NCBI GenBank assembly: GCA_034440155.1
Contig: JAWXBN010000053.1
Span: 20,031-84,030 of the forward strand
Length of the DNA stretch: 64,000 bases
Direction of reading: 5' to 3'
Origin: Verrucomicrobiota bacterium
Lineage (GTDB): Bacteria > Verrucomicrobiota > Verrucomicrobiia > JAWXBN01
Both the position numbers and the translations under genes were made by a program. Below are positions 11,970 to 25,900 of the stretch, one piece after another (position 1 is the stretch's first letter; every line of letters begins with the position of its first letter). The notes beneath the pieces were generated by a model, which was not told the DNA's origin, searched no databases, and was given only the letters and a program-made list of their open reading frames with translations.

Positions 11970-12737
11970 TTATTTTTTTTGAGCAACAAAATAATGGTTT
12001 TGACAGTACCTCGGGAAAAGATATTTAAATATCGTGTCAAAGTACCTGACTGTAGCAGATACCGTATTAGACTGACTCATCCGTACAGGCAGACGATTCC
12101 AACAGTTCCTAGGTATAAACCCATAACGCCCAGTCTCAAGAATTTCAAACCCCGTATCATTACAGAACTCCTCTATATCAGCCCTTATATACTTATAAAC
12201 ATGATGATGTTGCGCGGGTATCTTGGAGTTGATTTTTTCGATATAACTATACTTATTGGGAAAGTGGCCGCAAATAAAAAGCCCCCCTGGAATCAGCACA
12301 CGATTAATCTCTTTCATACTGGCTCTTTCATCTCCGCCTGTTTCTCTCACATGCTCTAACACCCCTACACTTGTCACGACATTATATGATTCGGCAGTAA
12401 ATGGCAGATTAACAGGATCAGCATCGCGAGCCGTACTATATTCAAAACTGGATGAAAAATTCTCCTCTAGAAATCTAATGAGAGCTTCATTTGCGAAAGA
12501 ATATGCATGTGTCTGGAATCCGCACTTCACGGCAAAATAACTAAAATGTCCATTCCCACATCCCCAATCCAAAACTCGGCTATTTTCCGCCACATACTTG
12601 TGTATTAAATTATATAAAGGCTCGTATTGTGCACCTGTTACCCTGCTTTTAAACTGAACCGGAAGGAGCTCTACATTATCCTTTGCTAGGGATTGGAAAG
12701 CATCAAAGATATCATCACTATTGATCTGTTTTGACAT
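11970..12737 (-). CDS. class I SAM-dependent methyltransferase
   Basis: 255 aa. Motif I VLDWGCGNGHFS and post-I/II motifs (VVTSVGVLEHV). Confidence 0.7.
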   Translation of the reverse strand: MSKQINSDDIFDAFQSLAKDNVELLPVQFKSRVTGAQYEPLYNLIHKYVAENSRVLDWGCGNGHFSYFAVKCGFQTHAYSFANEALIRFLEENFSSSFEYSTARDADPVNLPFTAESYNVVTSVGVLEHVRETGGDERASMKEINRVLIPGGLFICGHFPNKYSYIEKINSKIPAQHHHVYKYIRADIEEFCNDTGFEILETGRYGFIPRNCWNRLPVRMSQSNTVSATVRYFDTIFKYLFPRYCQNHYFVAQKK

Positions 12738-12782: not shown

Positions 12783-14096
12783 CTACTCACCGAGTAATTT
12801 TTTCAGGCGTGCAAGTTGCACATTCACCTTGGCTACATTCTCCTCGCGTTCTTGCGAGTTTTTGATGGTGTTTTGTTTTGGTGTAATCACTATGTTACGA
12901 CCGAGATTTCCAGCTATTTTCGATTGCTGTACCGGGGCTTGGATTGTCACGGTCTGGGCAATGGATTTGGCTGGATTAGATTGAGAAGCAACAGATGGTT
13001 TTGCGACCGTCACAGTAGATCCCCCCCCACCATAACTCATGACACCCGTTTGTAACTGTAGATCATCTTGAAGGCTGCGATGTGGCTGGATCCCCATTCC
13101 TTGCAGGACTCCATGATAGGCTTTAACAGCCTCTTCAGGCGTAATCTTCCCTTCCACTATCAAGCGGAGGAACTGGATAAAGGCGAGTTGATGTTCGGCC
13201 ATATTGATCTTACGCCCAAAGAGCGCCACACGTGCCCCGTACTTTTGTGCTTCAGAGATCAGTTTAAAGGCATCATAAGTCGTTCCTGCTCCTCCACCGA
13301 GAATACCGGCTACAAGCTGCGGGTCATAAGAAACAAGTTCCTCCATGGCCTTCGGCCCATGATAGACGATCTTGAGGAACTGGGGACGTCCAGCGGAGGT
13401 TACTCCGGCTAGGGAACGGATGATATGGTCATTGATAAAGCTGCCGAGTTTTTCATCCGAGACTCCGGCATCAATATTCGGGTCGAAAACCTCAAGAAAA
13501 TATTTAAAACCTTTTCTCTCGGCTTCCTCGCGAAATGTTTTGAAGGCACACAATGAATACTTGTCTCGGTCGACATCATTGGTAAATGTCACTGAATACA
13601 ACCCGAGATTTGCCCCCGTCACATCCTCACCTTCGCCACACTCTACTTTCCCGCATTGGATATGGTCTATCGAAGCCGTACGGAAGGGTTGTGAAGCTTG
13701 TTTGATGTATTGGCTCCCCCTCACCACCCAGATATCTGTTGTATCATTTGCACGAGCAGCAGGAGTAATGTGAGAATTCTGGAATAACCCCTCTTTCATG
13801 GCTAACTGCTCGATATTTGAGGCAGAAGCCAACATGATATCAACAAACCCCTGTTTGATCACCTCCCTGATCTGCTGGCGGTATTCTTCCAATGATTTGA
13901 AATGGGCCTCACCCTTCGCATAAGCTTCAGGTGATTGCCCCGCTTTGGGTCCAGGCGCCGCAGCCCCAAAAGCCATATCGGCGTCCTTCGCATCGGCAAT
14001 AATAAAGGCCTTGCTGGAATGAGGATTCTGCCTGATTTCAGCGAGTTTTTGATCAAGTGATTTATTCATAAAAAATTCCTGATAATTAATTTCCAA
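12783..14096 (-). CDS. DhnA/FbaB-type class I aldolase family protein with about 85-aa low-complexity C-terminal tail
   Basis: 437 aa. C-terminal TIM-barrel region GILGGGAGTTYDAFKLISEAQKYGARVALFGRKIN parallels E. coli FbaB (INSGGAAGGETDLSDAV...LILGRKAFK). Followed by GGGGS linker, a Q/S/T/P-rich stretch and a terminal predicted helix ENVAKVNVQLARLKKLLGE. Confidence 0.55.
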   Translation of the reverse strand: MEINYQEFFMNKSLDQKLAEIRQNPHSSKAFIIADAKDADMAFGAAAPGPKAGQSPEAYAKGEAHFKSLEEYRQQIREVIKQGFVDIMLASASNIEQLAMKEGLFQNSHITPAARANDTTDIWVVRGSQYIKQASQPFRTASIDHIQCGKVECGEGEDVTGANLGLYSVTFTNDVDRDKYSLCAFKTFREEAERKGFKYFLEVFDPNIDAGVSDEKLGSFINDHIIRSLAGVTSAGRPQFLKIVYHGPKAMEELVSYDPQLVAGILGGGAGTTYDAFKLISEAQKYGARVALFGRKINMAEHQLAFIQFLRLIVEGKITPEEAVKAYHGVLQGMGIQPHRSLQDDLQLQTGVMSYGGGGSTVTVAKPSVASQSNPAKSIAQTVTIQAPVQQSKIAGNLGRNIVITPKQNTIKNSQEREENVAKVNVQLARLKKLLGE

Positions 14097-14529
14097 GTCC
14101 TAATTGCTGATTTTTTATCCTTTTACGTATTAGAAAACCTATTACTGCACTCAGCAAAGCAATCAACAGGCTTGAAAAGAGAAATATTGAATTGCTCCAG
14201 TGATAATGGTTTTCAGCAAGAACCAGCATGAATATAGAAAATATCGATACACAGACAATGATCCTAGTCTGTTTTAAATCTAAGTGATATTTTTGTGCCC
14301 GTTTTGCATCATTACATATCAAGGTCTTGGCTTTTTTGCCATATTTTCGAGATAATATTGCGAACGGAAGGAATAATAAAAATGGTGAGATTAGGGCGGA
14401 AATATTCATTTTTCCATTATCCCCTCTATGTCCTATCAAAAGAGGAGTAACAACCAAAAAGATAATCGAAAGAACAGAAGCCAAGAGTGCTATGTTCTGA
14501 TGCTTTTTGATTTGTTTTTCTTCATCCAT
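14086..14529 (-). CDS. small hypothetical integral membrane protein
   Basis: 147 aa, about 4 TM helices. Overlaps the downstream aldolase-like gene by 11 nt (operonic). No family recognised. Confidence 0.45.
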   Translation of the reverse strand: MDEEKQIKKHQNIALLASVLSIIFLVVTPLLIGHRGDNGKMNISALISPFLLFLPFAILSRKYGKKAKTLICNDAKRAQKYHLDLKQTRIIVCVSIFSIFMLVLAENHYHWSNSIFLFSSLLIALLSAVIGFLIRKRIKNQQLGLGN

Positions 14530-14555
14530 AAATATGATTCAATCCAAAGAAAAAA

Positions 14556-15488
14556 CTATGCTTTAACCTTAGCCAATGTGTCTTTCAGAGCCTTGGCTGA
14601 TGCTTGGAGTCCATTGAGCTCTTTAGGCCAGAGTTCAACCTCGATCCGCTTTTCAGCCCCGCCTCGACCGACGATGGTGGGTACACTCAGACAAATATCC
14701 CGAATCCCGTATTCCCCGCGCATGTAGCTCGACACCGGCAGGATTGCTTTCCGGTCAAGGGCAATCGCTTCCACCACGACCTTGATGGCGACTCCCACGG
14801 CCCAACCTGCTCCACCTTTACGACTGATCACCTCGGCTCCACTGCCTTTAGTGCGTTCAAAAAGCTTTGTCTGGAGCTGAGGCGTCATCCCTGGGAAATT
14901 TGCGAGTGAAATCCCGTCTACAGTCGCTGAGGACCACACGGGAATCATGGAGTCACCATGTTCACCCAAGATCAGGGCGCGAACCTGGGTTGCCGGCAGA
15001 TTGAGTTCAGCAGCGATTAACGAGCAAAACCTTGAGGTATCGAGCATGGTCCCCAGACCAATAACGCGTGACTCTGGAAGCCCGAGTTTTTGTAGGGCAA
15101 GTTGCGTCAGGATATCGACAGGATTACTGACCACAAAAATATAAGCATCATCACGGAGACGGGCTGCCTTTAAACTTTCAAGAATTTGGAGAAAAAGAGA
15201 AACATTCCGGTTAATCAGGTCGAGGCGTGATTCGTCCGGTTTACGGCGCAGTCCTGCCGTAATGACAATCATATTACACTGCGCCATTTGCTCGTATCCA
15301 CAGGAGTATATTTTCTGGTCACCACAAAATGCCGCCCCATGCAACAAATCCAAGGCCTCACCCTCAGCAGTCGCCACATTCGCATCCAAGAGAGCAATTT
15401 CTTTAACAATCCCGCCGCACTGCAAGGCAAAAGCCGCACAACTGCCGACACGTCCCCCTGCACCGATGATTCCGACTTTTAAACTCAT
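14556..15488 (-). CDS. mdh: malate dehydrogenase (LDH-like MDH family)
   Basis: 310 aa. Rossmann GIIGAGGRVGS. Substrate loop ITAGLRRKPDESRLDL carries Arg at the LDH-Q102 equivalent position, the MDH signature. Catalytic H in GEHGDSMIP. Confidence 0.75.
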   Translation of the reverse strand: MSLKVGIIGAGGRVGSCAAFALQCGGIVKEIALLDANVATAEGEALDLLHGAAFCGDQKIYSCGYEQMAQCNMIVITAGLRRKPDESRLDLINRNVSLFLQILESLKAARLRDDAYIFVVSNPVDILTQLALQKLGLPESRVIGLGTMLDTSRFCSLIAAELNLPATQVRALILGEHGDSMIPVWSSATVDGISLANFPGMTPQLQTKLFERTKGSGAEVISRKGGAGWAVGVAIKVVVEAIALDRKAILPVSSYMRGEYGIRDICLSVPTIVGRGGAEKRIEVELWPKELNGLQASAKALKDTLAKVKA

Positions 15489-15566: not shown

Positions 15567-16613
15567 TTATTTTCCGCCAAAAGCTTTCATGATCTCATTA
15601 GTGATTTTTTGAACCGCTTCTTCTGGCACTTCCACTTCTGCTGCTTTGGCCGATTCGTTCCCGGTCTTGCACCCGCAAGAGCCTGTCGCCGTTTTACCAC
15701 GCAAGACTTCCCACGGATCAACTTCACAGAGTTGCACCGGCTTTAATCCCTCCCGGGGATCTGGCATCCCGAGTTTACTCCGGAGTTCAAGCAATTTACC
15801 CACTTCATCACTCGGAATCGTGCTGTCACCCTTTAACGGCATGGCATTCAAAAGGGTACGGCAATAAGCATCCGTGATTTCCATTTTCCAATAAGCATCT
15901 TCCACCCCAAATCCCCAACAAATAACCCCGTGGTTGCCCATCAGGATTGATTGGTGTTCGGCCGCCAATGGCTGGATGATCTCGGCCATTTCTTTCCCGC
16001 CGGGTGTCTTATAAGGGGCCAAGGGAGCGCGCCCCACAAAAACCTCATATTCGGGAATCAAACAAGCGGGAGGCTCGATTCCGGCTATGGCGAAAGCTGT
16101 GGCATGAACCGGGTGGGCATGGACGACGGCTTTAGCATTTGAGTTCCCCTTATAAAGGGCTAGATGGGTCGTGATTTCACTCGTGCGTTTACTGGAACCG
16201 GCAATTTGATTCCCTTCCAGATCCACCATACAAATCATATCCGGAGTCATAAATCCCTTACTCACCAATGTCGGGGTACAAAGGACTTGATTCTGTCCGA
16301 TACGGTAAGAAATATTCCCCCCGTTCCCGTCAACATATTCACGAGTCCAGAGCCGGCGACCCATTTCACAAATCTCTTTTTTGACGCGTTCGGCTTCTTC
16401 CGAAAAAAACATTGCCTGAACAGGATCAGAAGACGAAGATGCCGAAACACTTACGCCACTCTGGGCAATTTGCGCGGAGACAATAATTTTAATCTGATTT
16501 TCAGAAAAAACATCTTTGGCCCCGGGAGTAACGATAACCCCCGCTAGAACAGTAAATTCTTTTTTGCCGGTGGAGGCAAATTGCATCGCATCTTTTTCTG
16601 TGAAGAGTTTCAT
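15567..16613 (-). CDS. class II aldolase (fuculose/rhamnulose-1-phosphate aldolase-like), BMC-targeted
   Basis: 348 aa. Class II aldolase core from about residue 75 (GNGGNISYR...HAHPVHATAFA). C-terminal linker plus amphipathic helix EEAVQKITNEIMKAFGG looks like a BMC encapsulation peptide. About 70-aa N-terminal extension of unknown function. Confidence 0.8.
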   Translation of the reverse strand: MKLFTEKDAMQFASTGKKEFTVLAGVIVTPGAKDVFSENQIKIIVSAQIAQSGVSVSASSSSDPVQAMFFSEEAERVKKEICEMGRRLWTREYVDGNGGNISYRIGQNQVLCTPTLVSKGFMTPDMICMVDLEGNQIAGSSKRTSEITTHLALYKGNSNAKAVVHAHPVHATAFAIAGIEPPACLIPEYEVFVGRAPLAPYKTPGGKEMAEIIQPLAAEHQSILMGNHGVICWGFGVEDAYWKMEITDAYCRTLLNAMPLKGDSTIPSDEVGKLLELRSKLGMPDPREGLKPVQLCEVDPWEVLRGKTATGSCGCKTGNESAKAAEVEVPEEAVQKITNEIMKAFGGK

Positions 16614-16619
16614 AATTTA

Positions 16620-16916
16620 TTATTCCTGGTATGTTTTTCCTTGATAAAAATATTCATCGATGAGACCCGCACAATAGGCATCCACAGGCCGAGCCGGGTC
16701 GAAAGGGCAGGCAGCCTCACGGCCTTCACTGATGGCGATCGTCTGCCCCTGACTGGCTCCTAACTCGTCATAAACAACAATGGCAAAGTCGGTCGCTTTC
16801 TTCTCACCAGCAAAACGCTCCTGTTTCCAAGGCGCTACCAGCAAAAGCCTCTCACCGACATAACTTTCATGCCGTCTCGACAAGACCACGCGGCCTATGA
16901 CTGTTCCAAATCTCAT
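16620..16916 (-). CDS. BMC vertex protein (BMC-P; EutN/PduN/CcmL family)
   Basis: 98 aa. MRFGTVIGRVVLSRR...ERLLLVAP matches the EutN-family N-terminus. Confidence 0.8.
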   Translation of the reverse strand: MRFGTVIGRVVLSRRHESYVGERLLLVAPWKQERFAGEKKATDFAIVVYDELGASQGQTIAISEGREAACPFDPARPVDAYCAGLIDEYFYQGKTYQE

Positions 16917-17188
16917 GCGTTTAAATTCACTCCGTCGTCAATTACCCCCAGCACCGCCCAACGGGCAGGACTGAGTTCACTACCGACAATTTTCCGGGCT
17001 TCCGAGCCGTCACTGGAAATAATGACTTTTGATCCGATCCCAGCTCCAAAAGTATCAATCACCAGTTGCGGAGCCCCGTCATTAAAATCGTCATAGGAAA
17101 GAGGTTGTGCAATCATCAGACGCCACCCCTCGAGTGAAACATGTTTCACCTCGGCTGTTGCATAACCTTCTATCCGTGCGATTTTCAT
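16913..17188 (-). CDS. BMC vertex protein (BMC-P; EutN/PduN/CcmL family)
   Basis: 91 aa. MKIARIEGYATAEVKHVSLEGWRLMIAQPL... Overlaps the next BMC-P gene by 4 nt. Confidence 0.8.
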   Translation of the reverse strand: MKIARIEGYATAEVKHVSLEGWRLMIAQPLSYDDFNDGAPQLVIDTFGAGIGSKVIISSDGSEARKIVGSELSPARWAVLGVIDDGVNLNA

Positions 17189-17195
17189 TCGTTAA

Positions 17196-18656
17196 TCAAT
17201 AAATCTTGAGTTGATCGACCATGACACAGCGACGGCTGCGGGTGAATGTCATCGGTGTGGTGACTCCTTCTCCCGTCGGGGTCGCGATACTAAAGCTCAG
17301 AAAACCTTCACCTCCCAAACCCAAACCTGTCATGCTCGGACCGTTCTTGATGTAAAGTGTCGTATCTACGGCTTGAGCCATTTTCGTCATATTGACGACA
17401 TTCTGGGAATGAATGATGGCTGTGTGTTTATAACCATGCTCGGCACGAACCGCTGCGGCCACCGCATCGTCAAAATTCTTTACCCGTACAATCGGGATAA
17501 AGGGCATCATCTGCTCTTCTTCCACAAAGATATGATCTTCAGGGGTCACCCCAAAAAGTAACTGTGTCGATGCTGGCACATCTAGCCCTGCAATTTTAGC
17601 CAATACTGAAGCATCGGCTCCCACGAGCTTGCGATTCACACTCGGATGAGCGCAACCCGCGCCTTGGCCTTCGGGGAATACAAAAGCTTCTTGGGTGAGT
17701 TTTTCGATTTGGGCTGCATTTAATTGGACTGCCCCGTGTTTCTTGAGGGCGGCAATCAAGGCGTCGGCTACTTTCTCCACCACAAAAACTTCCTTTTCGC
17801 CGATGCAGAGCAAATTGTTATCATAAGAAGCTCCTTGGATGATTGCCGAGGCCGCCTGATCGAGGTTTGCGGTTTCATCCACGACGACAGGGGGATTTCC
17901 CGGACCGGCACAAACGGCACGTTTTCCTGATGCCATGGCTGCTTTGACTACCGCAGGGCCGCCTGTAACGCAGAGCAAACGGACAAACGGGCTCTTGCAC
18001 ATGGTATTAAAGGATTCAAGAGTTGGTTTCTCCACCATAGACAACATATCGCTGATCCCTGTGACCTTTTCGATTTCACGGTTGTAAACACGCAAGGCAA
18101 TGGCCGCACATTTTGCCGCACTCGGATGACAGTTAAAAACAATCGTGTTCCCCGCAGCAATCATATTAATCGCATTGCCCGTAATGGTAGGAACACTGTG
18201 GGTCGACGGGGTAATCGCCCCGATCACGCCCCATGGCGTATATTCGATCACTGTTAACCCGTGATCACCACTGAAAGCGTCGTGTTTGAGGAATTCCACA
18301 CCTGGAACCAAATCACCACAAATGCCCAGCTTCTCGATTTTATGATCCAAGCGCCCTATTTTGGTTTCTTCGAACTCAATCCGGCCCCACTCTTGGGCAT
18401 TTTGCACACAGAGTTTACGGATGACATTAATCGCTTTTTTACGGGCTTCGACCCCGGCGGCCTGGAGCTTTTGAAAAGAAACATCAGCAGCGGCAATGGC
18501 TTCTTCCATCGTGGGGTACACACCGTATCCACCGGCACTCACCGGTATACTGGAGACCGGCGTAGCGGGAGTCGCCTGTGGAGCACCAGCTCCCAAACTT
18601 GCCAACACCTGTTGAACCACCCTTGCGATTGTATCATCATTAATTTGTGTGTTCAT
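17196..18656 (-). CDS. CoA-acylating aldehyde dehydrogenase (PduP/EutE-like) with N-terminal encapsulation peptide
   Basis: 486 aa. ALDH fold with catalytic Cys in NLLCIGEKE. N-terminal amphipathic helix DDTIARVVQQVLASL followed by a G/A/P/T-rich linker is typical of BMC encapsulation peptides. Confidence 0.85.
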   Translation of the reverse strand: MNTQINDDTIARVVQQVLASLGAGAPQATPATPVSSIPVSAGGYGVYPTMEEAIAAADVSFQKLQAAGVEARKKAINVIRKLCVQNAQEWGRIEFEETKIGRLDHKIEKLGICGDLVPGVEFLKHDAFSGDHGLTVIEYTPWGVIGAITPSTHSVPTITGNAINMIAAGNTIVFNCHPSAAKCAAIALRVYNREIEKVTGISDMLSMVEKPTLESFNTMCKSPFVRLLCVTGGPAVVKAAMASGKRAVCAGPGNPPVVVDETANLDQAASAIIQGASYDNNLLCIGEKEVFVVEKVADALIAALKKHGAVQLNAAQIEKLTQEAFVFPEGQGAGCAHPSVNRKLVGADASVLAKIAGLDVPASTQLLFGVTPEDHIFVEEEQMMPFIPIVRVKNFDDAVAAAVRAEHGYKHTAIIHSQNVVNMTKMAQAVDTTLYIKNGPSMTGLGLGGEGFLSFSIATPTGEGVTTPMTFTRSRRCVMVDQLKIY

Positions 18657-18692
18657 AATCGATTTTCATCCTGATCAAACGGCATTATCGTT

Positions 18693-19001
18693 CTACTTAT
18701 TCTTGTATATTTCACGTCCATGGAGATCGACCGCGTCGACGATGCCGATAATGACAGCATCGACGGGTGTATCCTTATCCTTGGCGGCCAGACGGGCGGA
18801 GCTTCCTTGCACAACAAGCACGAGCTCACCCACGCCGGCCCCGAGGCTATCCGTCACCACGATTGTCGATGATGAAGCTTTGAATTCCTTAGCGTCCGGC
18901 CCTTCAGCAGTGACAGGACGCACGACGAGCAGTTTCTGCCCGGTCATTTTTTCATTCTTCTTGGTCGCGACCAGCGCGCCCTCGACTTTGGCTAGGATCA
19001 T
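18693..19001 (-). CDS. BMC vertex protein (BMC-P; EutN/PduN/CcmL family)
   Basis: Likely start is the internal MILAKVEGALVATKK... (about 102 aa). The ORF track extends 25 codons further upstream. Confidence 0.8.
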   Translation of the reverse strand: MILAKVEGALVATKKNEKMTGQKLLVVRPVTAEGPDAKEFKASSSTIVVTDSLGAGVGELVLVVQGSSARLAAKDKDTPVDAVIIGIVDAVDLHGREIYKNK

Positions 19002-19102
19002 AATACTTTTCCTTCTATGCAGATGAAGGCGTAATGAATCATCCGTTAACACCGGACCACCCACTCCATCCCGCAAACTGCCTCAGGTTATACTGGCTTA
19101 AA

Positions 19103-19384
19103 TTATTTTGTCTTGGGGAGTATACCCAGGATTTCGTCATGAGGACGGGGAATCACGCTGGTGGTAATAATTTCTCCACCAATAGCGGCGGCGGCTGTAC
19201 GACCAGCCTCTGTTGCGGCTTTAACAGCGGCGACATCACCGGTGACAACGCTCGTGACCATGGCGTTACCGACTTGTTGGTAACCCACGAGTTTAACATT
19301 CGCGCTTTTGAGCATCGCGTCGGTAGCCTCGACCAATGCGACGAGCCCACGTGTTTCAATGAATCCTAATGCTTGTTGTGACAT
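19103..19384 (-). CDS. BMC hexamer shell protein (BMC-H, Pfam00936)
   Basis: 93 aa. MSQQALGFIETRGLVALVEATDAMLKSANVKLVGY... Canonical PduA/EutM-type BMC domain. Confidence 0.9.
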   Translation of the reverse strand: MSQQALGFIETRGLVALVEATDAMLKSANVKLVGYQQVGNAMVTSVVTGDVAAVKAATEAGRTAAAAIGGEIITTSVIPRPHDEILGILPKTK

Positions 19385-19435
19385 ATTTTTGTTTTCCTAT
19401 TTTTGTTTTTTAAGTTGGTTAAAAATTTAGTTCTA

Positions 19436-20647
19436 TTATTGATGCAGAAGCTTCCAAGCATTCCGCGCGATAATCGTTTCTTCCGATGTCGGGATCAACA
19501 TGATGCGCGTTTTACTCGAAGGCTTCGAGAGCGTTACTTCCGTTTTGGGTGCTGTTTTATTAGTTTCTAAGTCGAGCTCAATCCCGAGCCCGTCGAGACC
19601 CGCGCAAATTGCTTCACGCAGCCAAGGGTTATTTTCGGCAATACCGGCTGTGAAGATCAATACATCACAACCACCAAGCTCGACAAGGAATTGACCGATA
19701 TAATTCCGAATATTCTTCACCAGGACTTTCAGTGCCATTTGCGCATCCACGCTTCCTTCATCAGCAGCCTTCAAGACATCGCGCAAATCCCCTGTGGGTG
19801 TGCCCGCCATTCCTTTGAGTCCGGCTTCTTTCATGAGCATTTGCTCTACTTTTTCCACGCCCAAACCCAGGTCGCGGATCAGGTAGATCAGTGCAAAGCT
19901 ATCAAAGTCACCGACACGGTTATTTTGGGGCAAACCACTCTGCGGTGTCATTCCCCAACTCGAATCCACAGCCACACCACCCTTGACCGCAGCAATCGAT
20001 GAACTCCCCCCCAAATGGCAGGAAATCATCCGCAAATTGCCCGCACCTAAAATCTCGGCGGCACGCTCAGTCACAAACCGGTGGCTGGCTCCATGGAACC
20101 CGTTGCGGCGAATCCCGTATTTATCATGCCACTCTTGAGGAATGGCAAATCGGGTATTCTGCTCGGGAACATGGTCGTAGAAGGCTGTTTCGAATGTACC
20201 GACACAGGGAATCTCTGGATAGTCCTTCTGAAAAAGACGCACCGCATTTACATACGGCGGATTATGCGCGGGCAGGAGGGTATAGATTTCCTCCATGGCC
20301 TTGAGCACATCCTCGGTCATTTCCACAGTCCCACTGATTCCCTTGGCCATTACCGGTTTGAACCCAATCGCTTTGACTTCGTCCATGGAGGTAATCACAC
20401 CTTCCTCGGTATCCATCATGGATTCAAAAGCCATATGAATGGCGGTCGGATAATCTGGAATCGGACAGGTTTTCTTCTGCGCTATCCCGCCCATCTTTTG
20501 ATAAGAATAGATACCGTCCTGCGAACCAATCCGTTCCACCCCTCCTTTACAGAGGAAAGTCTCATCGGGCATCGAAAATACAACGAATTTGAACGAAGTA
20601 CTTCCAATATTGGCTACGAGTATTTTATTTTTTTGCACGGACGACAT
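19436..20647 (-). CDS. ackA: acetate/propionate kinase
   Basis: 403 aa. ILVANIGSTSFKF N-terminal ATPase motif and ASKHH-family core. Confidence 0.9.
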   Translation of the reverse strand: MSSVQKNKILVANIGSTSFKFVVFSMPDETFLCKGGVERIGSQDGIYSYQKMGGIAQKKTCPIPDYPTAIHMAFESMMDTEEGVITSMDEVKAIGFKPVMAKGISGTVEMTEDVLKAMEEIYTLLPAHNPPYVNAVRLFQKDYPEIPCVGTFETAFYDHVPEQNTRFAIPQEWHDKYGIRRNGFHGASHRFVTERAAEILGAGNLRMISCHLGGSSSIAAVKGGVAVDSSWGMTPQSGLPQNNRVGDFDSFALIYLIRDLGLGVEKVEQMLMKEAGLKGMAGTPTGDLRDVLKAADEGSVDAQMALKVLVKNIRNYIGQFLVELGGCDVLIFTAGIAENNPWLREAICAGLDGLGIELDLETNKTAPKTEVTLSKPSSKTRIMLIPTSEETIIARNAWKLLHQ

Positions 20648-20725
20648 AGGGATATCTATCGATCTAATATTTTATGTGTGTAAAAAGGTTCCCGCCTAGA
20701 AATAACGAATCCGGCGGAAAATCCC

Positions 20726-21019
20726 TTATTTGGCTGCGGTAGCTCCACCGATCCATTTACCCATTCCAGCGAGTTCATCATGCGGACGGGGGATGACATG
20801 GACAGCGACGACTTCACCGACAGCGGCAGCGGCGGTGGCCCCTGCTTCGATAGCGGCTTTAACAGCAGCGACATCACCCTTTACAAAAGCCGTGACATTT
20901 CCTGAGCCGATCTTTTCCCAACCAACGATCTGGACATTGGCGGATTTGAGCATTTCATCGGTCGCTTCGAGTAATGCGACCAATCCTTTTGTTTCAACCA
21001 TACCTAGAGCTTGTGACAT
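20726..21019 (-). CDS. BMC hexamer shell protein (BMC-H)
   Basis: 97 aa. [34 protein letters not shown]... Confidence 0.9.
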
Positions 21020-21045
21020 AAATTTCTTTTCTCCGTATTTTAAAA

Positions 21046-21315
21046 TTAAGCGATATAAACCTTGAGCAGATCCGGATGGGGATTTGCGATGACATGACTG
21101 GCGACCAGTGTTCCAATGCGTTGAACCACTTCGCGCCCGGAATCAACTGCAGCTTTAACACTGCCTACATCTCCGCGGACAACGACAGTGACCATAGCAC
21201 CACCGATTTGGATCATTTTGACGAATTCGACATTCGCCGCCTTACACATGGCGTCTGTCGCCTCGGCGAGGCCGACGTAACCTTTAGTTTCGAGTAGTCC
21301 GATTGCTTGACTCAT
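21046..21315 (-). CDS. BMC hexamer shell protein (BMC-H)
   Basis: 89 aa. [34 protein letters not shown]... Confidence 0.9.
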
Positions 21316-21376
21316 ATTTTCCTTCTTTTCTTTGGGTTTGGGTTAGATTGTTTATTTTGTGTGTTAAAATCTTCGA

Positions 21377-22054
21377 TTAGACGAGCTCTACCTGTTCCGC
21401 CCTGTCGAGATCACAGGCATTTGCCTCATCGGTATCGATGTGGACCTCGAGTTTAAATGAGGGATCTACACGCACGAGCATGTCTTCAAAAACGGTCGTA
21501 CATTTAGGGGCTGTGATCCGCAGTTTCATATTATCCAAGTGTTTGACACCGTAAAACTCCGCATCAGATGGGCTCATATGAACATGGCGTGAGGCACGGA
21601 TAATCCCATCGGGCATTTCCCACGAGCCTTTCGGCCCGATCAATATCCCGCTGGTAGTCCCTGAAATATCCGCGGACATCCGGACGGGAATATCTAACCC
21701 GAGCTGGATCGAATCGCTGTAAGCAAGCTCGACTTGGTTAAGATTCCGGCATGGCCCGAGAATGCGGAGATTCGGGATGATCCTTTTCTTCGGCCCGATC
21801 AAAGTAACGGTTTCATTCGCCGCAAATTGCCCTTCTTGGTAAAGCCATTTGAAAACGGTGAGCTTGTGCCCGGCACCAAAAAGTTTTTCGACGGCTTCCT
21901 GAGTAAGATGGCAGTGGCGCGCGGAAGAATTTACGACTAATAATGGAACAGTTTTACCCGTCCTCGATGCAGCACCTGCTAATTGATTTTTCAGCGCCTG
22001 GCGGACGAGTTGCTCGACAGTGCCACGATCATAACTTGGATTCCCCTTAATCAT
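21377..22054 (-). CDS. pduL: phosphate propanoyl/acyltransferase PduL with N-terminal encapsulation peptide
   Basis: 225 aa. Two PduL repeats with SARHxHL-type motifs (VNSSARHCHL, IIRASRHVHM). N-terminal helix GTVEQLVRQALKNQL plus linker. Confidence 0.85.
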   Translation of the reverse strand: MIKGNPSYDRGTVEQLVRQALKNQLAGAASRTGKTVPLLVVNSSARHCHLTQEAVEKLFGAGHKLTVFKWLYQEGQFAANETVTLIGPKKRIIPNLRILGPCRNLNQVELAYSDSIQLGLDIPVRMSADISGTTSGILIGPKGSWEMPDGIIRASRHVHMSPSDAEFYGVKHLDNMKLRITAPKCTTVFEDMLVRVDPSFKLEVHIDTDEANACDLDRAEQVELV

Positions 22055-22866
22055 GCGATCGACTCCTTCTGGGTTAAATTTCTCTTAGATCCCTGTACTG
22101 CGACAACCACCTGGACGCCGGTCCGCTTGACCATTTTAAGGTGTTCGTCAGGAATGCCCTCAGAGGTGATCCAGTAATCAAAATCTTCAAATTGGGCAAA
22201 TGCCACAGGGCGATTCTGCCCCCATTTTGAGGCGTCCACCACCAAAATCGTCTTTTCGGCCCGTTTCATGAAAAGCTTTTTCATCTGTGCCTCGGTAAGC
22301 TCTGTGGTTGTGGCACCCCGTTCAAGCGAAAGCCCCGATGAACTCAAAATGGCGAAATCCGCAGATAATTGCTCCATCCATTGCGTGGAAAGCTCCCCAA
22401 CCAAAGCTTGGTTCACCACGCGCAATTGTCCCCCGATACAAATCACTTGGGCTTGGGTGCTATGCGCCGCGGTTAAAAGGGGAATGGAATTGGTAATAAT
22501 CGTTAAATCCTTCCGCCGTAAAAGGCGGCGACCAATCTCCATACATGTCGAACCGGAATCCACAAATACAGAGGAATTTGATGGAATAAGATCAATAACC
22601 GTATCGGCAATGGCCTGTTTGTCCAGACGGTTCTCCTGGGCTTTCTGTTCGTAACTGGGTTCCCCATTGAAATAGGATGGATGCATGACCCCACCATGAA
22701 TCCTGATTAATTTACCCGATTCCTCCAGCTCTGTGAGGTCACGGCGCAGGGTTGCAGGGGAAACCCCCAAGGCTTTCTCAAGGGTCTGCACACTCAGACG
22801 GCCCTTCCGGTCGAGAAGCGAAGTTATTTTTTGAAAGCGCTCGTGAGCGAACATGAGCGAATTCAA
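22051..22866 (-). CDS. DeoR/GlpR-family transcriptional regulator
   Basis: 271 aa. N-terminal HTH (LSVQTLEKALGVSPATLRRDLTELEE) plus sugar-phosphate-binding C-terminal domain. TTG start at 22866 or ATG at 22854. Confidence 0.85.
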   Translation of the reverse strand: MNSLMFAHERFQKITSLLDRKGRLSVQTLEKALGVSPATLRRDLTELEESGKLIRIHGGVMHPSYFNGEPSYEQKAQENRLDKQAIADTVIDLIPSNSSVFVDSGSTCMEIGRRLLRRKDLTIITNSIPLLTAAHSTQAQVICIGGQLRVVNQALVGELSTQWMEQLSADFAILSSSGLSLERGATTTELTEAQMKKLFMKRAEKTILVVDASKWGQNRPVAFAQFEDFDYWITSEGIPDEHLKMVKRTGVQVVVAVQGSKRNLTQKESIA

Positions 22867-22948: not shown

Positions 22949-25900
22949 TCAGTCTACCTTCAGGATGACTTCCGAGAGGATAATCGAGAGTTCCGCTAGA
23001 CGATAAGGCTTTGGTAAAGCCGCTTTAAAGCCCATTTGGGAAAAACTCATCATTGTTTCTTCTTCCGAATACCCGCTGGAAGCAATCGCCCTCACCTCCG
23101 GATCAATCTGCTTCAATCGCCTGAGGGTTTCGACGCCACCAATGCCTCCTTGGATCGTCAAGTCCAGAATTAAGGCATCAACCCGGGTTCCATTTGCTTT
23201 AAGCTTTAAAAACGCCTCTACACAATCTTCTCCGTGAGATGTTTTGACCGCCTGATACCCGAGCACCTCGATAGTTTCCGCCAAAGTATTCAGGATCATC
23301 TCATTATCATCCATAATCACAATCAATCCCTGTCCCTCGATCACATTCTCGGACATCCTGCGGGGGGATGTATCCTGACTATCCGTAGCTGGTAAGGTCA
23401 CAGAAAAAACAGTTCCCTTTGTGGATGAAGAGGAGAACTGGATGCTTCCCCCGTGTTTACCGATAATCGAATGGCTAATGGCCAACCCCAATCCTGTGCC
23501 ATTTTTCTTGGTGGTGAAATAAGGGTTAAAGATATTCCTTTGAACTTCCCTCGGGATACCCGGCCCATTATCGGCCACTGAAAATGAAACAAATTTAGTC
23601 ACCTGATTGCCCGTGGAGGGTAACTCGATATTCTCCGCATAGACCTTGATTTTTCCACCTTCACCGAGCACCTGCCGTGCATTCAGTGCGAGATTGTATA
23701 TAACCTGTTTGATCTGGCCTTCATCGGCATTCACACGGAATAAATCATCAGGAATATTGTATTCGCAAGCAATTTGCGAACCCCGGAGCGCAAACCGGGA
23801 GGCTTCCGTGAGTAATTCTGCTAAGCTGGTTACCTGTTTGATTGGTGCCCCCCCTCGCGCAAAAGTCAGGAGCTGCTTGGTTAATTGCTGGGCTTCATCA
23901 CAAACTTTGAGGATATCATCGAGATACTCCCGTGTTTTAGACTGGATAACCTCTTGATTTTTCACTAAGGAGGCATTCATCACGATCGTCGACAAGAAGT
24001 TATTGAAATCATGGGCTATACCCCCTGCCAAAATCCCGACTGACTCGAGCCTTTGATTCCGTTCATTCCTTTCATCCTCACGTTTTTTATCGGAGATGGC
24101 ATGAATAAAAAGGATAATTCTGAAAACCTCGCCTTGGGAATTATAAATAGGGCTAAACCGTGTATGCCACCAGAAAAGATCGTCCTCCCCCGTGATCGAC
24201 AGCTCCGCCTCGCATGTCTCCTGTTTCAGCAAACACTCTTCCAGAAGTGCAAACAACCCGTCTCCCGCTTCCTGCGGGAGGAGCCGCCTACATTCATAAA
24301 CGTCGTTTTCCAGCAAGATGTGACAATTCTCCGTGTCGACAACCTTCCTGAACGCGTTATTCAGTGCGACACAATGTAAACTCCCATCATCATTCTTCTC
24401 AATGACTGCCAACATGGTATCTACCCCGTCAAAGATCGATTTAAAGAAAGCTTCACTCTGGATAAGCTGTTCCTCGGCAGACTTTTTATCTGTGATATCA
24501 TGGGCGATTCCTGCCACTCGCCGCACGTTTCCGTCATCATCACGGATGGGGTAACCCCTATCCCTAATCCACCGGACGGATCCGTCAGCCATGACTATCC
24601 GGTACTCCTTGTCGTAAAGGACATCCTTCCCCTGCTGGATCGACATTTTTACTACCCAAGGGCGGTCATCGGGATGGATGGCCTCCAACCAATCGAGCGG
24701 GTCTTTAAGTAGTTTGTCTACCGATCTCCCCCAGACCTTCTCATACGATGGGTTCACATAGACCATCAGGTCGGTCTTCGCATCCCATATCCAGAAAACA
24801 TCATAGATATTTTCCGTAATCTGAAGGAACCGCTCTTCATTTTCTTTAAGCTTTTCCTCTATGATTTTTCTCTCTGTGATGTCTAGGGCAAACCACACCG
24901 TATAAATATTCTCAGGATTACTCTCGACTAAATCACTCCCGATCAGTGCCATGGCCAAGGCCCCGTCTTTACGGATGAACTCCTGTTCGATCAACGTCGG
25001 CCCCCCTTCATTATTCCTCTCCCTGACAAACTCATGGGTCTGACCAGGCCGTTTCATCATGAGGGAATCAATTTTGAGTCTGCCCGCTTGGATATCCTCA
25101 TGGCTGTAACCCGTCATTTTTAGGAAATATTCATTACAATCCCGGATCACCCCTTTTGCCCCCGTGAAAAAGACACCGACAAGATCAGACTCAAAAACCT
25201 TTCTGAACCGGGATTCATTTTCCTTGAGGGCATTTTGTGTCTTGACCCTATTAGACACATCACGACTGCTGCAAACAAGATGCATTTCATCATCACCCTG
25301 GGCAGAAAGCGATTTTATAGTGGACTCTAGCCACTTATAGTCACCCCCTTTACAGGCAAACCGATAGGTAACACTACAAGCACTTAACTCATCCTTGAGC
25401 ATGGAGAAATGCTGTCCAACAAGTATTTGCTCATCCGGATGAACAAACTCCATGATCTTCTGACCAATTAACTCTTCTGGATCATGACCGATTATCACAC
25501 TACACGAAGGCGAAACATATTGAAGGGTCAAATCCTCATCTAAAAGACAAATCATGTCCGAGGAATGCTCGGCAAGCAAACGGTAACGGGCTTCACTTGC
25601 AAGGGAGGCTTCCTCCGCCGTTTTCCTTTCGGTGATATCCCTGCACAAACCGATCACTTGACACACAGCACCTCCACTATCCCTCTTAAAAACCGCCTCA
25701 CTACTGCGGAACCAGCGGAATCCGCCCCCTTTAAGGATCATACGGTACTCCATATCGATCACATCACCGTCATTGAGTCCGAGATACAGACCCTGGTGCT
25801 CGATAAATGCCGGATAATCATCGGGATAAATCACTGTTTCTATTACTTTAGTTCCCATTTCGATAATCTCTTCCGGTGTGTAGCCCGCCCGGTCAAAAAT

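What the first reader, a model, noticed from the sequence alone, without database searches (positions are those of the whole stretch)
12783..15488. BMC operon continues into mdh, a small membrane protein and a DhnA-type class I aldolase with a long C-terminal tail ending in an amphipathic helix
Three further co-directional genes follow the class II aldolase with short gaps (78, 26 and -11 nt): an MDH-signature dehydrogenase, a 4-TM protein and a 437-aa FbaB/DhnA-like aldolase. The last has an approximately 85-aa extension: GGGGS, then a Q/S/T/P-rich linker, then ENVAKVNVQLARLKKLLGE. Linker plus terminal amphipathic helix is the architecture of BMC encapsulation peptides. PVM loci are not known to encode a second, class I aldolase or a 2-hydroxyacid dehydrogenase for cofactor recycling. 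This could be an accessory module, for example an alternative sugar-phosphate cleavage route or NADH recycling by an LDH/MDH-fold enzyme. It could also simply be an unrelated neighbouring operon.
Basis: inference. Interest (0 to 1): 0.55.

Follow-up and report, generated by a model that had tools for sequence, protein, structure and literature searches.

The report
Tailed second aldolase ends PVM microcompartment operon
The last conserved gene of this fucose/rhamnose microcompartment operon encodes an unannotated enzyme with a Schiff-base (class I) aldolase fold and a tail that looks like a microcompartment targeting signal, so the accepted enzyme list for this organelle may be incomplete; the dehydrogenase beside it is already known and the small membrane gene is a local insertion.

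Summary
The three minus-strand genes are present as described and continue a complete PVM-type microcompartment (BMC) operon.

1. The 310-aa LDH/MDH-fold gene is the known PVM component PvmO, so it is not new.
2. The 147-aa 4-TM ORF has low GC (0.34 against about 0.50). It has no homologue in 160 related loci. In sister genomes the same slot holds unrelated small ORFs. I read it as a lineage-specific insertion, not a module part.
3. The "DhnA-like" protein is most likely 428 aa from the ATG at 14069, not 437 aa.
   - It belongs to a very large family in which every named member is "hypothetical protein", with no Pfam or NCBIfam family.
   - The strand-6 lysine and the GGG and GRK phosphate motifs are conserved.
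   - In 56 of 65 species-level genomes it lies directly after the PVM class II aldolase, with or without PvmO between. Synteny ends there.
   - All 24 aligned Verrucomicrobia/Planctomycetes members, and nearly all complete genes in the 80 genome loci, carry a variable linker and a conserved, basic C-terminal helix. Alphaproteobacterial relatives in sugar-kinase operons without shell genes lack the tail.

Encapsulation and substrate remain inferred.

The parts
14556..15488 (-). PvmO-type LDH/MDH-fold NAD dehydrogenase, 310 aa, with no terminal extension and so no encapsulation peptide. The residue at the Gln102 position of LDH is Arg.
   Evidence: Pfam Ldh_1_N and Ldh_1_C. NCBIfam scores lie at the LDH/MDH borderline. 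Best PDB match is T. maritima L-LDH 1a5z, E 7e-67, with R aligned to the LDH Q. The gene lies between the class II aldolase and the aldolase-like gene in 29 of 56 related genome loci. It is named PvmO in Sutter 2021 Supplementary Data 6.
14086..14529 (-). 147-aa ORF with four hydrophobic segments. It is a lineage-specific, low-GC insertion between pvmO and the aldolase-like gene and is probably not part of the BMC system.
   Evidence: GC is 0.338 (GC3 0.311) against 0.48-0.52 for the neighbouring genes, and there are four Kyte-Doolittle segments. No Pfam family passes threshold. There is no tblastn hit in 80 genome loci or 80 metagenome loci. In the sister genomes the same slot holds an unrelated 136-aa ORF or a 23S_rRNA_IVP gene. 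Its 90% identity cluster has only 4 members.
12783..14069 (-). Protein with a class I aldolase fold plus a C-terminal tail, 428 aa from the ATG at 14069. The mechanical ORF starts at the TTG at 14096. This is the last conserved gene of the PVM operon.
13035..14069 (-). Catalytic (beta/alpha)8 core, residues 1-345. Motifs: strand 1 IIADAKDADM, strand 6 FLK(233)IVYHGP, strand 7 ILGGGAGTT, strand 8 ALFGRKIN.
   Evidence: Invariant columns are listed. Strand positions come from DSSP on the model. hhalign against E. coli LsrF gives probability 77% and E 1.9e-5 over 134 columns.
13371..13373 (-). Codon of Lys233, the candidate Schiff-base lysine on strand 6.
   Evidence: Translation was checked. The residue is invariant in the 24-sequence alignment A1. 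It aligns with the lysine of the LsrF IIK motif, which is Lys203, the Schiff-base residue (my own knowledge of LsrF).
12861..13034 (-). Low-complexity linker, residues 346-403. It is predicted to be disordered, and its length and sequence vary between homologues.
   Evidence: pLDDT is below 50 for residues 343-403. The alignments show no conservation, and total protein lengths range from 384 to 454 aa.
12786..12860 (-). C-terminal helix NSQEREENVAKVNVQLARLKKLLGE, carrying the family-wide motif h-A-x3-A-R-L-x2-R-(L/F)-G. It is a candidate encapsulation or cargo-association peptide.
   Evidence: The model has a helix at 400-425 with block-mean pLDDT 58-75 over 401-428. The motif is present in all 24 aligned homologues and in nearly all complete genes of the 80 genome loci. 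It is absent from the tail-less alphaproteobacterial clade. Hydrophobic moment and net charge were computed.
15567..16613 (-). Context: PvmN-type class II aldolase, the signature enzyme, with a C-terminal encapsulation peptide (EEAVQKITNEIMKAFGGK) and a 75-aa N-terminal extension.
   Evidence: Pfam Aldolase_II, E 1e-44. Sequence. C-terminal encapsulation peptides on BMC class II aldolases are described in PMC4594438.
16620..22866 (-). Context: the rest of the PVM operon, in order DeoR, PduL, BMC-H, BMC-H, AckA, BMC-H, BMC-P, AldDH, BMC-P, BMC-P.
   Evidence: ORFs and translations. Pfam gives PTAC, Aldedh and EutN_CcmL. The same gene order is seen in L164-L167 with precomputed Pfam labels.

Best explanation
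Positions 12783-15488 are the 3' end of a PVM-type (Planctomycetes-Verrucomicrobia) microcompartment operon for L-fucose/L-rhamnose catabolism.

**Gene 1** is the known PvmO LDH/MDH-fold dehydrogenase. It has no targeting peptide. Its proposed role in the literature is NAD+/NADH balancing around lactaldehyde and lactate.

**Gene 2** is a horizontally acquired small membrane ORF sitting in a variable insertion slot. It is not part of the system.

**Gene 3** is the last conserved gene of the operon. It belongs to a large, unannotated family of TIM-barrel enzymes remotely related to the Schiff-base enzymes that bind DHAP (ADH synthase, LsrF, archaeal FBP aldolase, LacD, YihT).
- *Inferred:* it uses Lys233 on strand 6 to form a Schiff base with a phosphorylated ketose or a DHAP-type substrate. 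The phosphate would be held by the GGG (strand 7) and GRK (strand 8) loops. The reaction would release DHAP plus an aldehyde, or would be a related trans-aldol or thiolytic reaction.
- *Shown:* the Verrucomicrobia/Planctomycetes clade carries a disordered linker and a conserved, positively charged amphipathic C-terminal helix. Relatives in operons without shell genes lack this tail.
- *Inferred:* the helix recruits the enzyme into, or onto, the PVM metabolosome. It would do so by binding shell proteins or by pairing with other cargo tails such as the acidic C-terminal peptide of the class II aldolase. The organelle would then hold two mechanistically different aldolases.
For: **Operon membership**
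- Of 65 species-level loci with at least 2.5 kb upstream, 56 have the PVM class II aldolase on the same strand directly upstream, and 29 of those have PvmO in between. Loci with enough upstream DNA show the full order DeoR-PduL-H-H-AckA-H-P-AldDH-P-P-aldolase.
- Intergenic gaps are often only 3-40 nt.
- No gene family recurs downstream. The most frequent one occurs in 5 of 53 loci.
- Sister genomes keep aldolase-LDH-[variable small ORF]-gene 3 but are followed by different housekeeping genes.
- No terminator-like site was found between the genes.

**Fold and active site**
- Foldseek gives the same set, E 1.8e-8 and weaker, with probability 1.00.
- hhalign of a diverse family profile against E. 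coli LsrF gives 77% probability and E 1.9e-5. It aligns FLK233 with the LsrF IIK lysine, GGG with aGG, and FGRKI with mGRNI.

**Sugar-phosphate context**
- Tail-less relatives sit next to PfkB, FGGY or ADP-PFK-type kinases, sugar ABC transporters and SDRs, with no shell genes within 7 kb on either side.
- Fusions of this domain to PfkB kinases exist (P0126, P0158).

**Tail**
- It is present in all 24 aligned members of the clade and in nearly all complete genes of the 80 genome loci.
- The linker is variable and has low pLDDT, and a terminal helix is predicted.
- It is absent from the listed close relatives of the tail-less clade, which are mostly 339-343 aa.
- This matches the published definition of encapsulation peptides (PMC4594438; PMC11585597).
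- Mean net charge of the last 20 residues is +3.1 (n = 76), against -1.1 for the class II aldolase tails from the same set of loci (n = 60).
Against: - Nothing here shows encapsulation or catalysis.
- The helix is only moderately amphipathic. Its mean hydrophobic moment is 0.53 against 0.43 +/- 0.14 for shuffled sequences, and the window's own tail scores 0.44.
- The helix is basic and conserved in sequence, unlike classical encapsulation peptides, which are described as not conserved in sequence.
- Nine of 65 loci carry the tailed gene with no BMC genes in the upstream DNA held (about 3 to 10 kb).
- In a metagenome sample picked with the PVM aldolase, only 10 of 37 loci with enough downstream DNA have the gene. 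That includes 6 PVM-like loci that lack it, whose aldehyde dehydrogenases are the closest to this window's in that sample, where that gene lies on the contig. It is therefore a frequent but not obligatory component.
- Sequence homology to class I aldolases is marginal. There is no Pfam or NCBIfam membership, and hhalign against FbaB is not significant.
- The model has only moderate confidence (mean pLDDT 69.7).
- I could not read Erbilgin 2014, so the gene may already be drawn in the characterised locus.
Confidence: 0.6

Rival explanations
1. The aldolase-like enzyme belongs to the PVM regulon but works in the cytosol. It could, for example, act on a sugar phosphate upstream of the organelle or on exported DHAP. 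In this reading the C-terminal helix serves oligomerisation, regulation or docking on the outside of the shell, not encapsulation.
For: The tail is basic and conserved in sequence, unlike canonical encapsulation peptides. Its hydrophobic moment is only modestly above shuffled sequence. PvmO in the same operon has no encapsulation peptide at all. Nine loci keep the tail without adjacent BMC genes. DhnA-family enzymes such as LsrF and ADH synthase form large ring oligomers (the many chains per entry; my own knowledge).
Against: Tail-less relatives show that the barrel needs no tail. A linker plus terminal helix, found in the clade that sits in BMC loci and absent from the relatives that do not, is exactly the published criterion for an encapsulation peptide.
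Confidence: 0.22
2. The protein is an LsrF-like CoA-dependent thiolase or transferase, or a trans-aldolase like ADH synthase, rather than a simple retro-aldolase. It would make an acyl-CoA plus DHAP, or move a DHAP-derived fragment, inside the CoA-cycling metabolosome.
For: LsrF and ADH synthase are the two best structural matches. LsrF is the only family member with a significant profile alignment. The operon encodes the CoA-cycling enzymes AldDH and PduL.
Confidence: 0.1
3. The protein is a catalytically dead scaffold or assembly factor that only uses its tail to organise cargo, like the inactive enzyme paralogues bearing encapsulation peptides seen in some BMCs.
For: Non-functional enzymes with encapsulation peptides are documented in other BMC types (PMC11585597). 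Three divergent family members have lost the strand-6 lysine. Two of them, P0186 and P0262, are tailed; P0160 is tail-less.
Against: In the main clade, Lys233, the strand-1 DAKD motif and the GGG and GRK motifs are invariant, and the core is 60-70% identical across two phyla. That points to selection on an active site.
Confidence: 0.05
4. The three genes form an unrelated neighbouring operon that merely abuts the BMC locus.
For: There is a 78-nt AT-rich gap before the LDH gene. The genes downstream are housekeeping genes.
Against: Adjacency and orientation are conserved in 56 of 65 genomes across Verrucomicrobia and Planctomycetes, while everything further downstream varies. PvmO is a recognised PVM gene.
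Confidence: 0.03

Closest known systems
PVM (Planctomycetes-Verrucomicrobia) bacterial microcompartment locus, genes pvmB-pvmO (Erbilgin 2014; Axen 2014; Sutter 2021)
   Same: The gene order DeoR, PduL, BMC-H x2, AckA, BMC-H, BMC-P, AldDH, BMC-P x2, class II aldolase with a C-terminal encapsulation peptide, then an LDH/MDH-fold PvmO is the same.
   Different: The gene lists I could read stop at PvmO. They mention no component with a class I aldolase fold. Here, and in 56 of 65 related genomes, one more conserved gene follows.
DhnA/FbaB-LsrF-ADH synthase-LacD-YihT group of class I (Schiff-base) aldolases (Pfam PF01791, DeoC/LacD)
   Same: It shares the (beta/alpha)8 fold, with these enzymes as its best structural matches. 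It also shares a lysine on strand 6 aligned with the LsrF Schiff-base lysine, and GG and GR phosphate loops on strands 7 and 8.
   Different: Identity is 12-16%, and no Pfam or NCBIfam model recognises it. The core is about 345 aa against 250-290 aa, with long insertions (low-pLDDT segments 30-55 and 110-131). It also has a C-terminal tail. The substrate is unknown.
DERA (PF01791) signature enzyme of SPU microcompartments
   Same: Both are enzymes of class I aldolase fold encoded in a BMC locus and carrying a targeting-type extension.
   Different: SPU DERA is recognised by Pfam, carries its extension at the N-terminus and is the signature enzyme. It has been stated to be restricted to SPU loci. 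The present family sits in PVM loci, carries its tail at the C-terminus and accompanies a class II signature aldolase.
Canonical BMC encapsulation peptides (PduP, PduD, EutC, CcmN, C-terminus of class II aldolase)
   Same: [quoted passage not shown]
   Different: It has net positive charge (+3 on average) and a recognisable conserved sequence motif: ARLxxR(F/L)G in all flavours, preceded by WP...DGxPDFxxM in most Verrucomicrobia (most planctomycete tails keep only PDFxxM). Classical encapsulation peptides share a hydrophobic pattern but no sequence.

Membership tests
PVM-type BMC operon | BMC-H genes plus a BMC-P triplet, together with AldDH, PduL-type PTAC, acetate kinase and a DeoR regulator | tested here: met
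   ORFs at 16620-22866, with Pfam PTAC, Aldedh and EutN_CcmL. The same set carries precomputed Pfam labels in L164-L167.
PVM-type BMC operon | Signature class II aldolase (PF00596) with a C-terminal encapsulation peptide | tested here: met
   Gene at 15567-16613, Aldolase_II E 1e-44. Its C-terminus is ...EEAVQKITNEIMKAFGGK.
PVM-type BMC operon | The three genes of the finding are conserved, co-directional members of the locus in other genomes | tested here: met
   Met for the LDH gene (29 of 56 loci) and the aldolase-like gene (56 of 65 loci). Not met for the 4-TM ORF (0 of 160 loci). The reverse test is weaker: 10 of 37 aldolase-seeded metagenome loci have the aldolase-like gene.
PVM-type BMC operon | Co-transcription with the shell genes and induction on fucose or rhamnose | not testable with these tools
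   There is only indirect evidence: short gaps and no terminator-like site in the intergenic regions.
Class I (Schiff-base) aldolase superfamily, DhnA/LsrF/LacD group | (beta/alpha)8 barrel whose closest structures are members of the group | tested here: met
Class I (Schiff-base) aldolase superfamily, DhnA/LsrF/LacD group | Schiff-base lysine on strand 6 | tested here: met
   K233 lies in model strand 232-235 and is invariant in A1. It aligns with the lysine of the LsrF IIK motif. Its chemical role was not tested.
Class I (Schiff-base) aldolase superfamily, DhnA/LsrF/LacD group | Phosphate-binding glycine loop after strand 7 and a G-R motif after strand 8 | tested here: met
   ILGGGAGTT and ALFGRKIN align with LsrF aGG and mGRNIFQ.
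Class I (Schiff-base) aldolase superfamily, DhnA/LsrF/LacD group | Recognition by the curated family models (Pfam PF01791; NCBIfam FbaB, LsrF or ADH synthase) | tested here: not met
   No Pfam hit at E <= 10 in any of 24 members. NCBIfam best hit is 20.8 bits against a cut-off of 241. hhalign against E. coli FbaB gives E 0.16. I therefore file it as a remote relative forming a family of its own, not as a DhnA/FbaB member.
Class I (Schiff-base) aldolase superfamily, DhnA/LsrF/LacD group | Aldol cleavage or condensation activity through a covalent imine | not testable with these tools
   Needs enzymology (borohydride trapping, K233A mutant).
BMC encapsulation peptide | Terminal amphipathic helix of about 15-20 residues | tested here: inconclusive
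   A helix is predicted at 400-425. The hydrophobic positions follow an i, i+4, i+7, i+11 pattern (my reading of the tails). The mean hydrophobic moment is 0.53, against 0.43 +/- 0.14 for shuffled sequence, and the helix is basic.
BMC encapsulation peptide | [quoted passage not shown] | tested here: met
   pLDDT is below 50 for 343-403. The linker is unalignable and varies in length.
BMC encapsulation peptide | The extension is present in BMC-associated homologues and absent from non-BMC homologues | tested here: met
   The tailed form sits in PVM operons in 56 of 65 loci. The tail-less relatives end right after the barrel, and the two contexts examined are sugar operons without shell genes. 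Caveat: 9 tailed genes have no BMC genes in the upstream DNA held.
BMC encapsulation peptide | Sufficient and necessary for targeting cargo to the shell lumen | not testable with these tools
   Needs reporter fusions and BMC purification.
LDH/MDH superfamily (PvmO) | Ldh_1_N and Ldh_1_C domains, encoded directly after the PVM class II aldolase | tested here: met

The most novel reading that the evidence does not exclude
The PVM metabolosome, a widespread organelle for degrading algal and plant 6-deoxy sugars, would contain two encapsulated DHAP aldolases of different mechanistic classes. One is the known metal-dependent PvmN. The other is a previously unannotated Schiff-base enzyme. The second enzyme would either widen the substrate range, for instance to a different 6-deoxyhexulose-1-phosphate stereoisomer or another ketose phosphate that yields an aldehyde for PvmJ, or account for how a single organelle handles both fucose and rhamnose. 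Its unusual basic, sequence-conserved tail would be a new flavour of encapsulation peptide that pairs with the acidic PvmN tail to nucleate the cargo core.
Probability: 0.3. Interest if true: 0.7.

Novelty: new member of a known kind. Interest (0 to 1): 0.5.

Why it matters
PVM microcompartments are the characterised route for fucose and rhamnose use in Planctomycetes and Verrucomicrobia. These bacteria are major degraders of fucoidan and other algal polysaccharides.

The current pathway model has one signature aldolase, plus AldDH, PTAC, acetate kinase and PvmO. A further conserved enzyme with a targeting-type tail would mean one of two things. Either the model lacks a reaction, or the organelle takes a second substrate.

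The family is very large and completely unannotated. A single biochemical assignment would therefore propagate to thousands of genes. That includes the tail-less relatives in alphaproteobacterial sugar operons and the fusions to PfkB kinases.

The basic, conserved tail could also be a useful orthogonal tag for engineering cargo loading.

The rest of the finding is ordinary. The LDH gene is known, and the membrane ORF is an insertion.

Tried and rejected
- **Curated models.** Pfam and NCBIfam gave nothing usable for the aldolase-like protein or the 4-TM ORF.
- **Sequence searches of the PDB.** They gave only insignificant hits: phmmer E 0.4 to LsrF, and nothing relevant with the A1 profile.
- **hhalign.** The narrow alignment A1 against LsrF was weak (13% probability). 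It became informative only with the diverse alignment A3. FbaB stayed non-significant.
- **AlphaFold database.** The afdb50 fold library was not available.
- **Erbilgin 2014.** This is the paper that characterised the locus. It is not in the library, so I could not check whether the gene is drawn or named there.
- **Other literature searches.** Searches for PvmO/PvmP/PvmN and papers on Lentimonas, Planctomycetota, Limisphaera and peat Verrucomicrobia do not mention the gene.
- **Link to the model organism.** A third homologue search seeded with a planctomycete member was meant to find the Planctopirus limnophila copy. It returned only hypothetical proteins from uncultured (MAG) or unnamed metagenomic sources.
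- **Downstream partner.** I looked for a conserved downstream gene, such as a kinase or isomerase, that would hint at the substrate. There is none.
- **Rest of the window.** It holds no fucose or rhamnose isomerase or kinase genes among the ORFs I scanned.
- **Promoter/terminator scan.** It is uninformative: counts are at or below the shuffled expectation.
- **The idea that the 4-TM protein is a transporter or anchor for the BMC.** Rejected because of its composition, its lack of conservation and the variable content of that slot.

Full report
**What is in the sequence**

All genes of the region are on the minus strand. Reading in the direction of transcription, the operon is:

| Coordinates | Gene |
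|---|---|
| 22051-22866 | DeoR regulator |
| 21377-22054 | PduL-type phosphotransacylase |
| 21046-21315, 20726-21019 | two BMC-H |
| 19436-20647 | acetate kinase |
| 19103-19384 | BMC-H |
| 18693-19076 | BMC-P |
| 17196-18656 | aldehyde dehydrogenase |
| 16913-17188, 16620-16916 | two BMC-P |
| 15567-16613 | class II aldolase |

This is the PVM locus architecture. The class II aldolase ends in a typical encapsulation peptide, EEAVQKITNEIMKAFGGK.

The three genes of the finding follow:
- 14556-15488, 310 aa;
- 14086-14529, 147 aa;
- 12783-14096, 437 aa from a TTG.

Downstream lie a methyltransferase, pyrD, an M90 peptidase, infC, rplT and pheS, all unrelated housekeeping genes. An exact-sequence look-up places the window in a Verrucomicrobiota MAG. 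NCBI annotates the 147-aa ORF there as 'hypothetical protein'.

**Gene 1, the dehydrogenase**

It has the Ldh_1_N and Ldh_1_C domains. Its NCBIfam scores sit on the LDH/MDH border. It is most similar to bacterial L-LDHs (1a5z, E 7e-67). However, it has Arg where LDHs have Gln102, in the motif GLRRKPDESR. The 'MDH signature' is therefore real at that position. There is no N- or C-terminal extension, so the protein has no encapsulation peptide.

- Axen et al. [quoted passage not shown]
- Supplementary Data 6 of Sutter et al. 2021 lists PF02866 as PvmO.

In my sample, the gene lies between the class II aldolase and the third gene in 29 of 56 loci.

**Gene 2, the 4-TM ORF**

Hydropathy analysis confirms four hydrophobic segments. 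Several observations argue against a role in the system:
- Its GC content is 0.338 (GC3 0.311), against 0.48-0.52 for every neighbouring BMC gene.
- It has no significant family match.
- Its 90% identity cluster has four members.
- tblastn finds no homologue in any of 80 genome loci or 80 metagenome loci.
- In the closest genomes, whose aldolase-like protein is 89% identical, the same slot holds an unrelated 136-aa ORF.
- In the next closest genomes (73% identical), the slot holds a 23S_rRNA_IVP-family gene.
- In many genomes the LDH gene and the third gene are only 3-40 nt apart, which leaves no room for an extra gene.

I conclude that this is a lineage-specific insertion in a permissive intergenic slot, not a part of the module.

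**Gene 3, classification**

All homologues begin M-x-K-S-L-D. The start is therefore most likely the ATG at 14069, with AGGAA 7 nt upstream. This gives 428 aa.

The family is very large. In the 50% identity library there are 1140 representatives at E <= 1e-3. Every named member is a 'hypothetical protein'. No Pfam model hits any of 24 members, even at E <= 10. NCBIfam gives only a 21-bit hit to ADH synthase.

The AlphaFold2 model has mean pLDDT 69.7, with most of the barrel at about 75-95. It is an eight-stranded TIM barrel.
- Foldseek gives the same set, led by the ADH synthase-DHAP Schiff-base complex at E 1.8e-8.
- With a diverse family profile, hhalign against E. coli LsrF reaches 77% probability and E 1.9e-5 over 134 columns. 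It aligns FLK233 with the LsrF IIK lysine (Lys203, the Schiff-base residue, from my own knowledge of LsrF). It also aligns GGG with aGG, and FGRKI with mGRNI (the same register appears).
- K233 lies in model strand 232-235 and is invariant in the 24-sequence alignment.

The protein is thus a remote relative of the DhnA/LsrF/LacD group that forms its own family. Filing it as 'FbaB/DhnA' would overstate the case. The curated models do not recognise it, and hhalign against FbaB is not significant.

**Gene 3, genomic association**

- Of 65 loci with at least 2.5 kb upstream, 56 have the PVM class II aldolase on the same strand just upstream. Loci with enough upstream DNA show the whole PVM gene order. 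The 56 include both Verrucomicrobia and Planctomycetes.
- Downstream there is no conservation at all. Among 53 loci with at least 3 kb of downstream DNA, the most frequent gene family occurs in 5.
- The gene is therefore the last conserved gene of the operon.

The association is not absolute.
- Nine loci carry a tailed copy with no BMC genes in the upstream DNA held, about 3 to 10 kb.
- In a reverse test seeded with the PVM aldolase on metagenome contigs, only 10 of 37 loci with at least 2.6 kb downstream have the gene.
- Many of the 27 without it have a different architecture, with DeoR immediately downstream of the aldolase.
- Six PVM-like loci (L084, L085, L087, L088, L090, L091) lack it nearby. 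Five of these carry an aldehyde dehydrogenase 69-77% identical to the window's; L087's contig starts too late to show that gene. L088 carries PduS and a BMC-T gene downstream instead.

**Gene 3, the tail**

Every aligned member from the Verrucomicrobia/Planctomycetes clade continues past the barrel (...MSYGG). There follows a linker that cannot be aligned, and whole proteins range from 384 to 454 aa. A conserved C-terminal helix closes the protein.

There are three flavours of the helix:

| Clade | C-terminal motif |
|---|---|
| This window's clade and Chthoniobacteraceae | RVxxQLARLRxRLGE |
| Most Verrucomicrobia | WP..DGxPDFxxMTxxQRxAYDxxRLxRxFG |
| Planctomycetes | PDFxRMTxAEKLAYNKAxRDRIFG |

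All three share h-A-x3-A-R-L-x2-R-(F/L)-G. The model shows pLDDT below 50 for 343-403 and a helix at 400-425.

By contrast, a clade that includes named Alphaproteobacteria (Acidisoma, Shinella, Dongia, Inquilinus, Consotaella) has proteins mostly of 339-343 aa that stop right after the barrel. The representative P0124 is 49% identical to the window protein. Their contexts are sugar operons with no shell genes within 7 kb on either side:
- DeoR, an ADP-PFK/GK-type kinase, an ABC transporter, an SDR, the gene, and another SDR;
- ROK, an FGGY kinase, an ABC transporter, the gene, and a PfkB kinase.

Fusions of the domain to PfkB kinases also exist (P0126 of 727 aa, P0158 of 674 aa). These neighbours fit a kinase/aldolase pair acting on a phosphorylated sugar.

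A linker plus terminal helix that is present in BMC loci and absent elsewhere is the published operational definition of an encapsulation peptide (PMC4594438; PMC11585597).

The tail differs from classical encapsulation peptides in three ways:
- It is basic. Mean net charge of the last 20 residues is +3.1 (n = 76), against -1.1 for the class II aldolase tails from the same set of loci (n = 60).
- Its hydrophobic moment is only modestly above shuffled sequence (0.53 against 0.43 +/- 0.14).
- Its sequence is conserved across phyla.

The opposite charges of the two aldolase tails suggest they might pair. That is speculation.

**Most likely mechanism**

*Shown:*
- operon membership, by synteny;
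- a class I aldolase-type fold with a conserved strand-6 lysine and phosphate loops;
- a tail specific to the clade that sits in BMC loci.

*Inferred:*
- The enzyme forms a Schiff base through K233 with a ketose phosphate or DHAP-type substrate. It releases DHAP plus an aldehyde, which the encapsulated aldehyde dehydrogenase can take.
- The tail brings it into, or onto, the PVM metabolosome.

The substrate is unknown. One attractive possibility is a 6-deoxyhexulose-1-phosphate stereoisomer not handled by the class II aldolase. I offer it because YihT, sulfohexulose-1-P aldolase and ADH synthase, all near structural matches, act on 6-deoxy or 6-sulfo ketose phosphates. This rests on my knowledge of those enzymes, not on a test here. 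An LsrF-like CoA-dependent reaction is a minority alternative.

**Comparison with what is known, and novelty**

The LDH gene is already known as PvmO. The membrane ORF is an insertion.

For the third gene, the PVM gene lists and descriptions I could read contain no component with a class I aldolase fold (Axen 2014; Sutter 2021 main text and Supplementary Data 2 and 6). A 2024 paper states that, among BMCs, DERA (PF01791) occurs only in SPU loci.

I could not read Erbilgin 2014. I also could not retrieve the P. limnophila copy. The gene may therefore already appear as an unnamed ORF in a published locus diagram.

I rate the finding as a new member of a known kind: a new cargo-type enzyme family of a known organelle. 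The tail variant is somewhat unusual. Interest is 0.5. The finding is not categorically new, but it concerns a very large unannotated family. It gives a concrete, testable addition to the model of an ecologically important organelle.

Noticed in passing
window 16389-16613 (minus strand; N-terminal 75 residues of the class II aldolase): The PVM class II aldolase carries a 75-aa N-terminal extension (MKLFTEKDAMQFASTGKKEFTVLAGVIVTPGAKDVFSENQIKII... followed by a Ser-rich linker) with no Pfam hit at E <= 0.1. Verrucomicrobial homologues align from residue 1, whereas planctomycete hits start near residue 60. It might correspond to the small separate PvmL ('flavoprotein-like', PF02441) gene listed for the planctomycete locus, fused here to PvmN.
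   Followed up: partly
P0126 (727 aa) and P0158 (674 aa): These are natural fusions of the aldolase-like domain, without the tail, to a C-terminal PfkB-type sugar kinase with GAGD motifs. This is a Rosetta-stone hint that the family acts on the product of a PfkB kinase.
   Followed up: partly
P0186, P0262 and P0160: These divergent family members (27-38% identity) have lost the strand-6 lysine, with L, F and E in its place. P0186 and P0262 still carry the planctomycete-type tail ...EKLxYNQxxRDRIFG, so they may be non-catalytic paralogues that keep the tail.
   Followed up: no
L164 6477-6920, L165 6476-6919, L166 5944-6390 and 9042-9422, L167 2697-3077: Small PDDEXK_3 (PF13366) and 23S_rRNA_IVP (PF05635) genes are inserted inside the PVM operons of the closest relatives, between AldDH and BMC-P and between pvmO and the aldolase-like gene. 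In this lineage the operon seems to tolerate, or attract, small selfish-looking inserts. The window's 4-TM ORF occupies one of these slots.
   Followed up: partly
L164/L165 (GCA_030285465.1, GCA_030163865.1); record titles of L014, L015, L034, L043, L048, L049: Contigs carrying clearly verrucomicrobial PVM loci are deposited under the cyanobacterial names Kamptonema cortianum and Oscillatoria. Others appear as MAGs titled Bifidobacterium, Klebsiella pneumoniae or Akkermansia muciniphila. These are probably co-culture contamination or mislabelled bins.
   Followed up: no
window 18693-19076 (minus strand): The mechanical ORF of the first BMC-P gene (127 aa from a TTG) is probably over-extended. 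The homologous gene is called at 102 aa in L165 and L166, which matches an internal start at MILAKVEG....
   Followed up: no
L088 9339-11203; L085 7253-8533; L087 2722-3969: PVM-like metagenome loci that lack the aldolase-like gene carry other genes downstream of the class II aldolase. L088 has a PduS-like protein plus a BMC-T protein. L085 and L087 have extra paralogues of the class II aldolase.
   Followed up: partly
window 11970-12737 (minus strand): The SAM-methyltransferase directly downstream also has low GC (0.397). It is intact in L165 but appears only as a 108-aa called gene in L164. It is another variable gene at the operon boundary.
   Followed up: no
window 22949-26431 (minus strand): A 1160-aa multi-PAS hybrid histidine kinase with a receiver domain lies immediately upstream of the DeoR regulator of the BMC operon, on the same strand. 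It is a possible sensory input to the locus.
   Followed up: no
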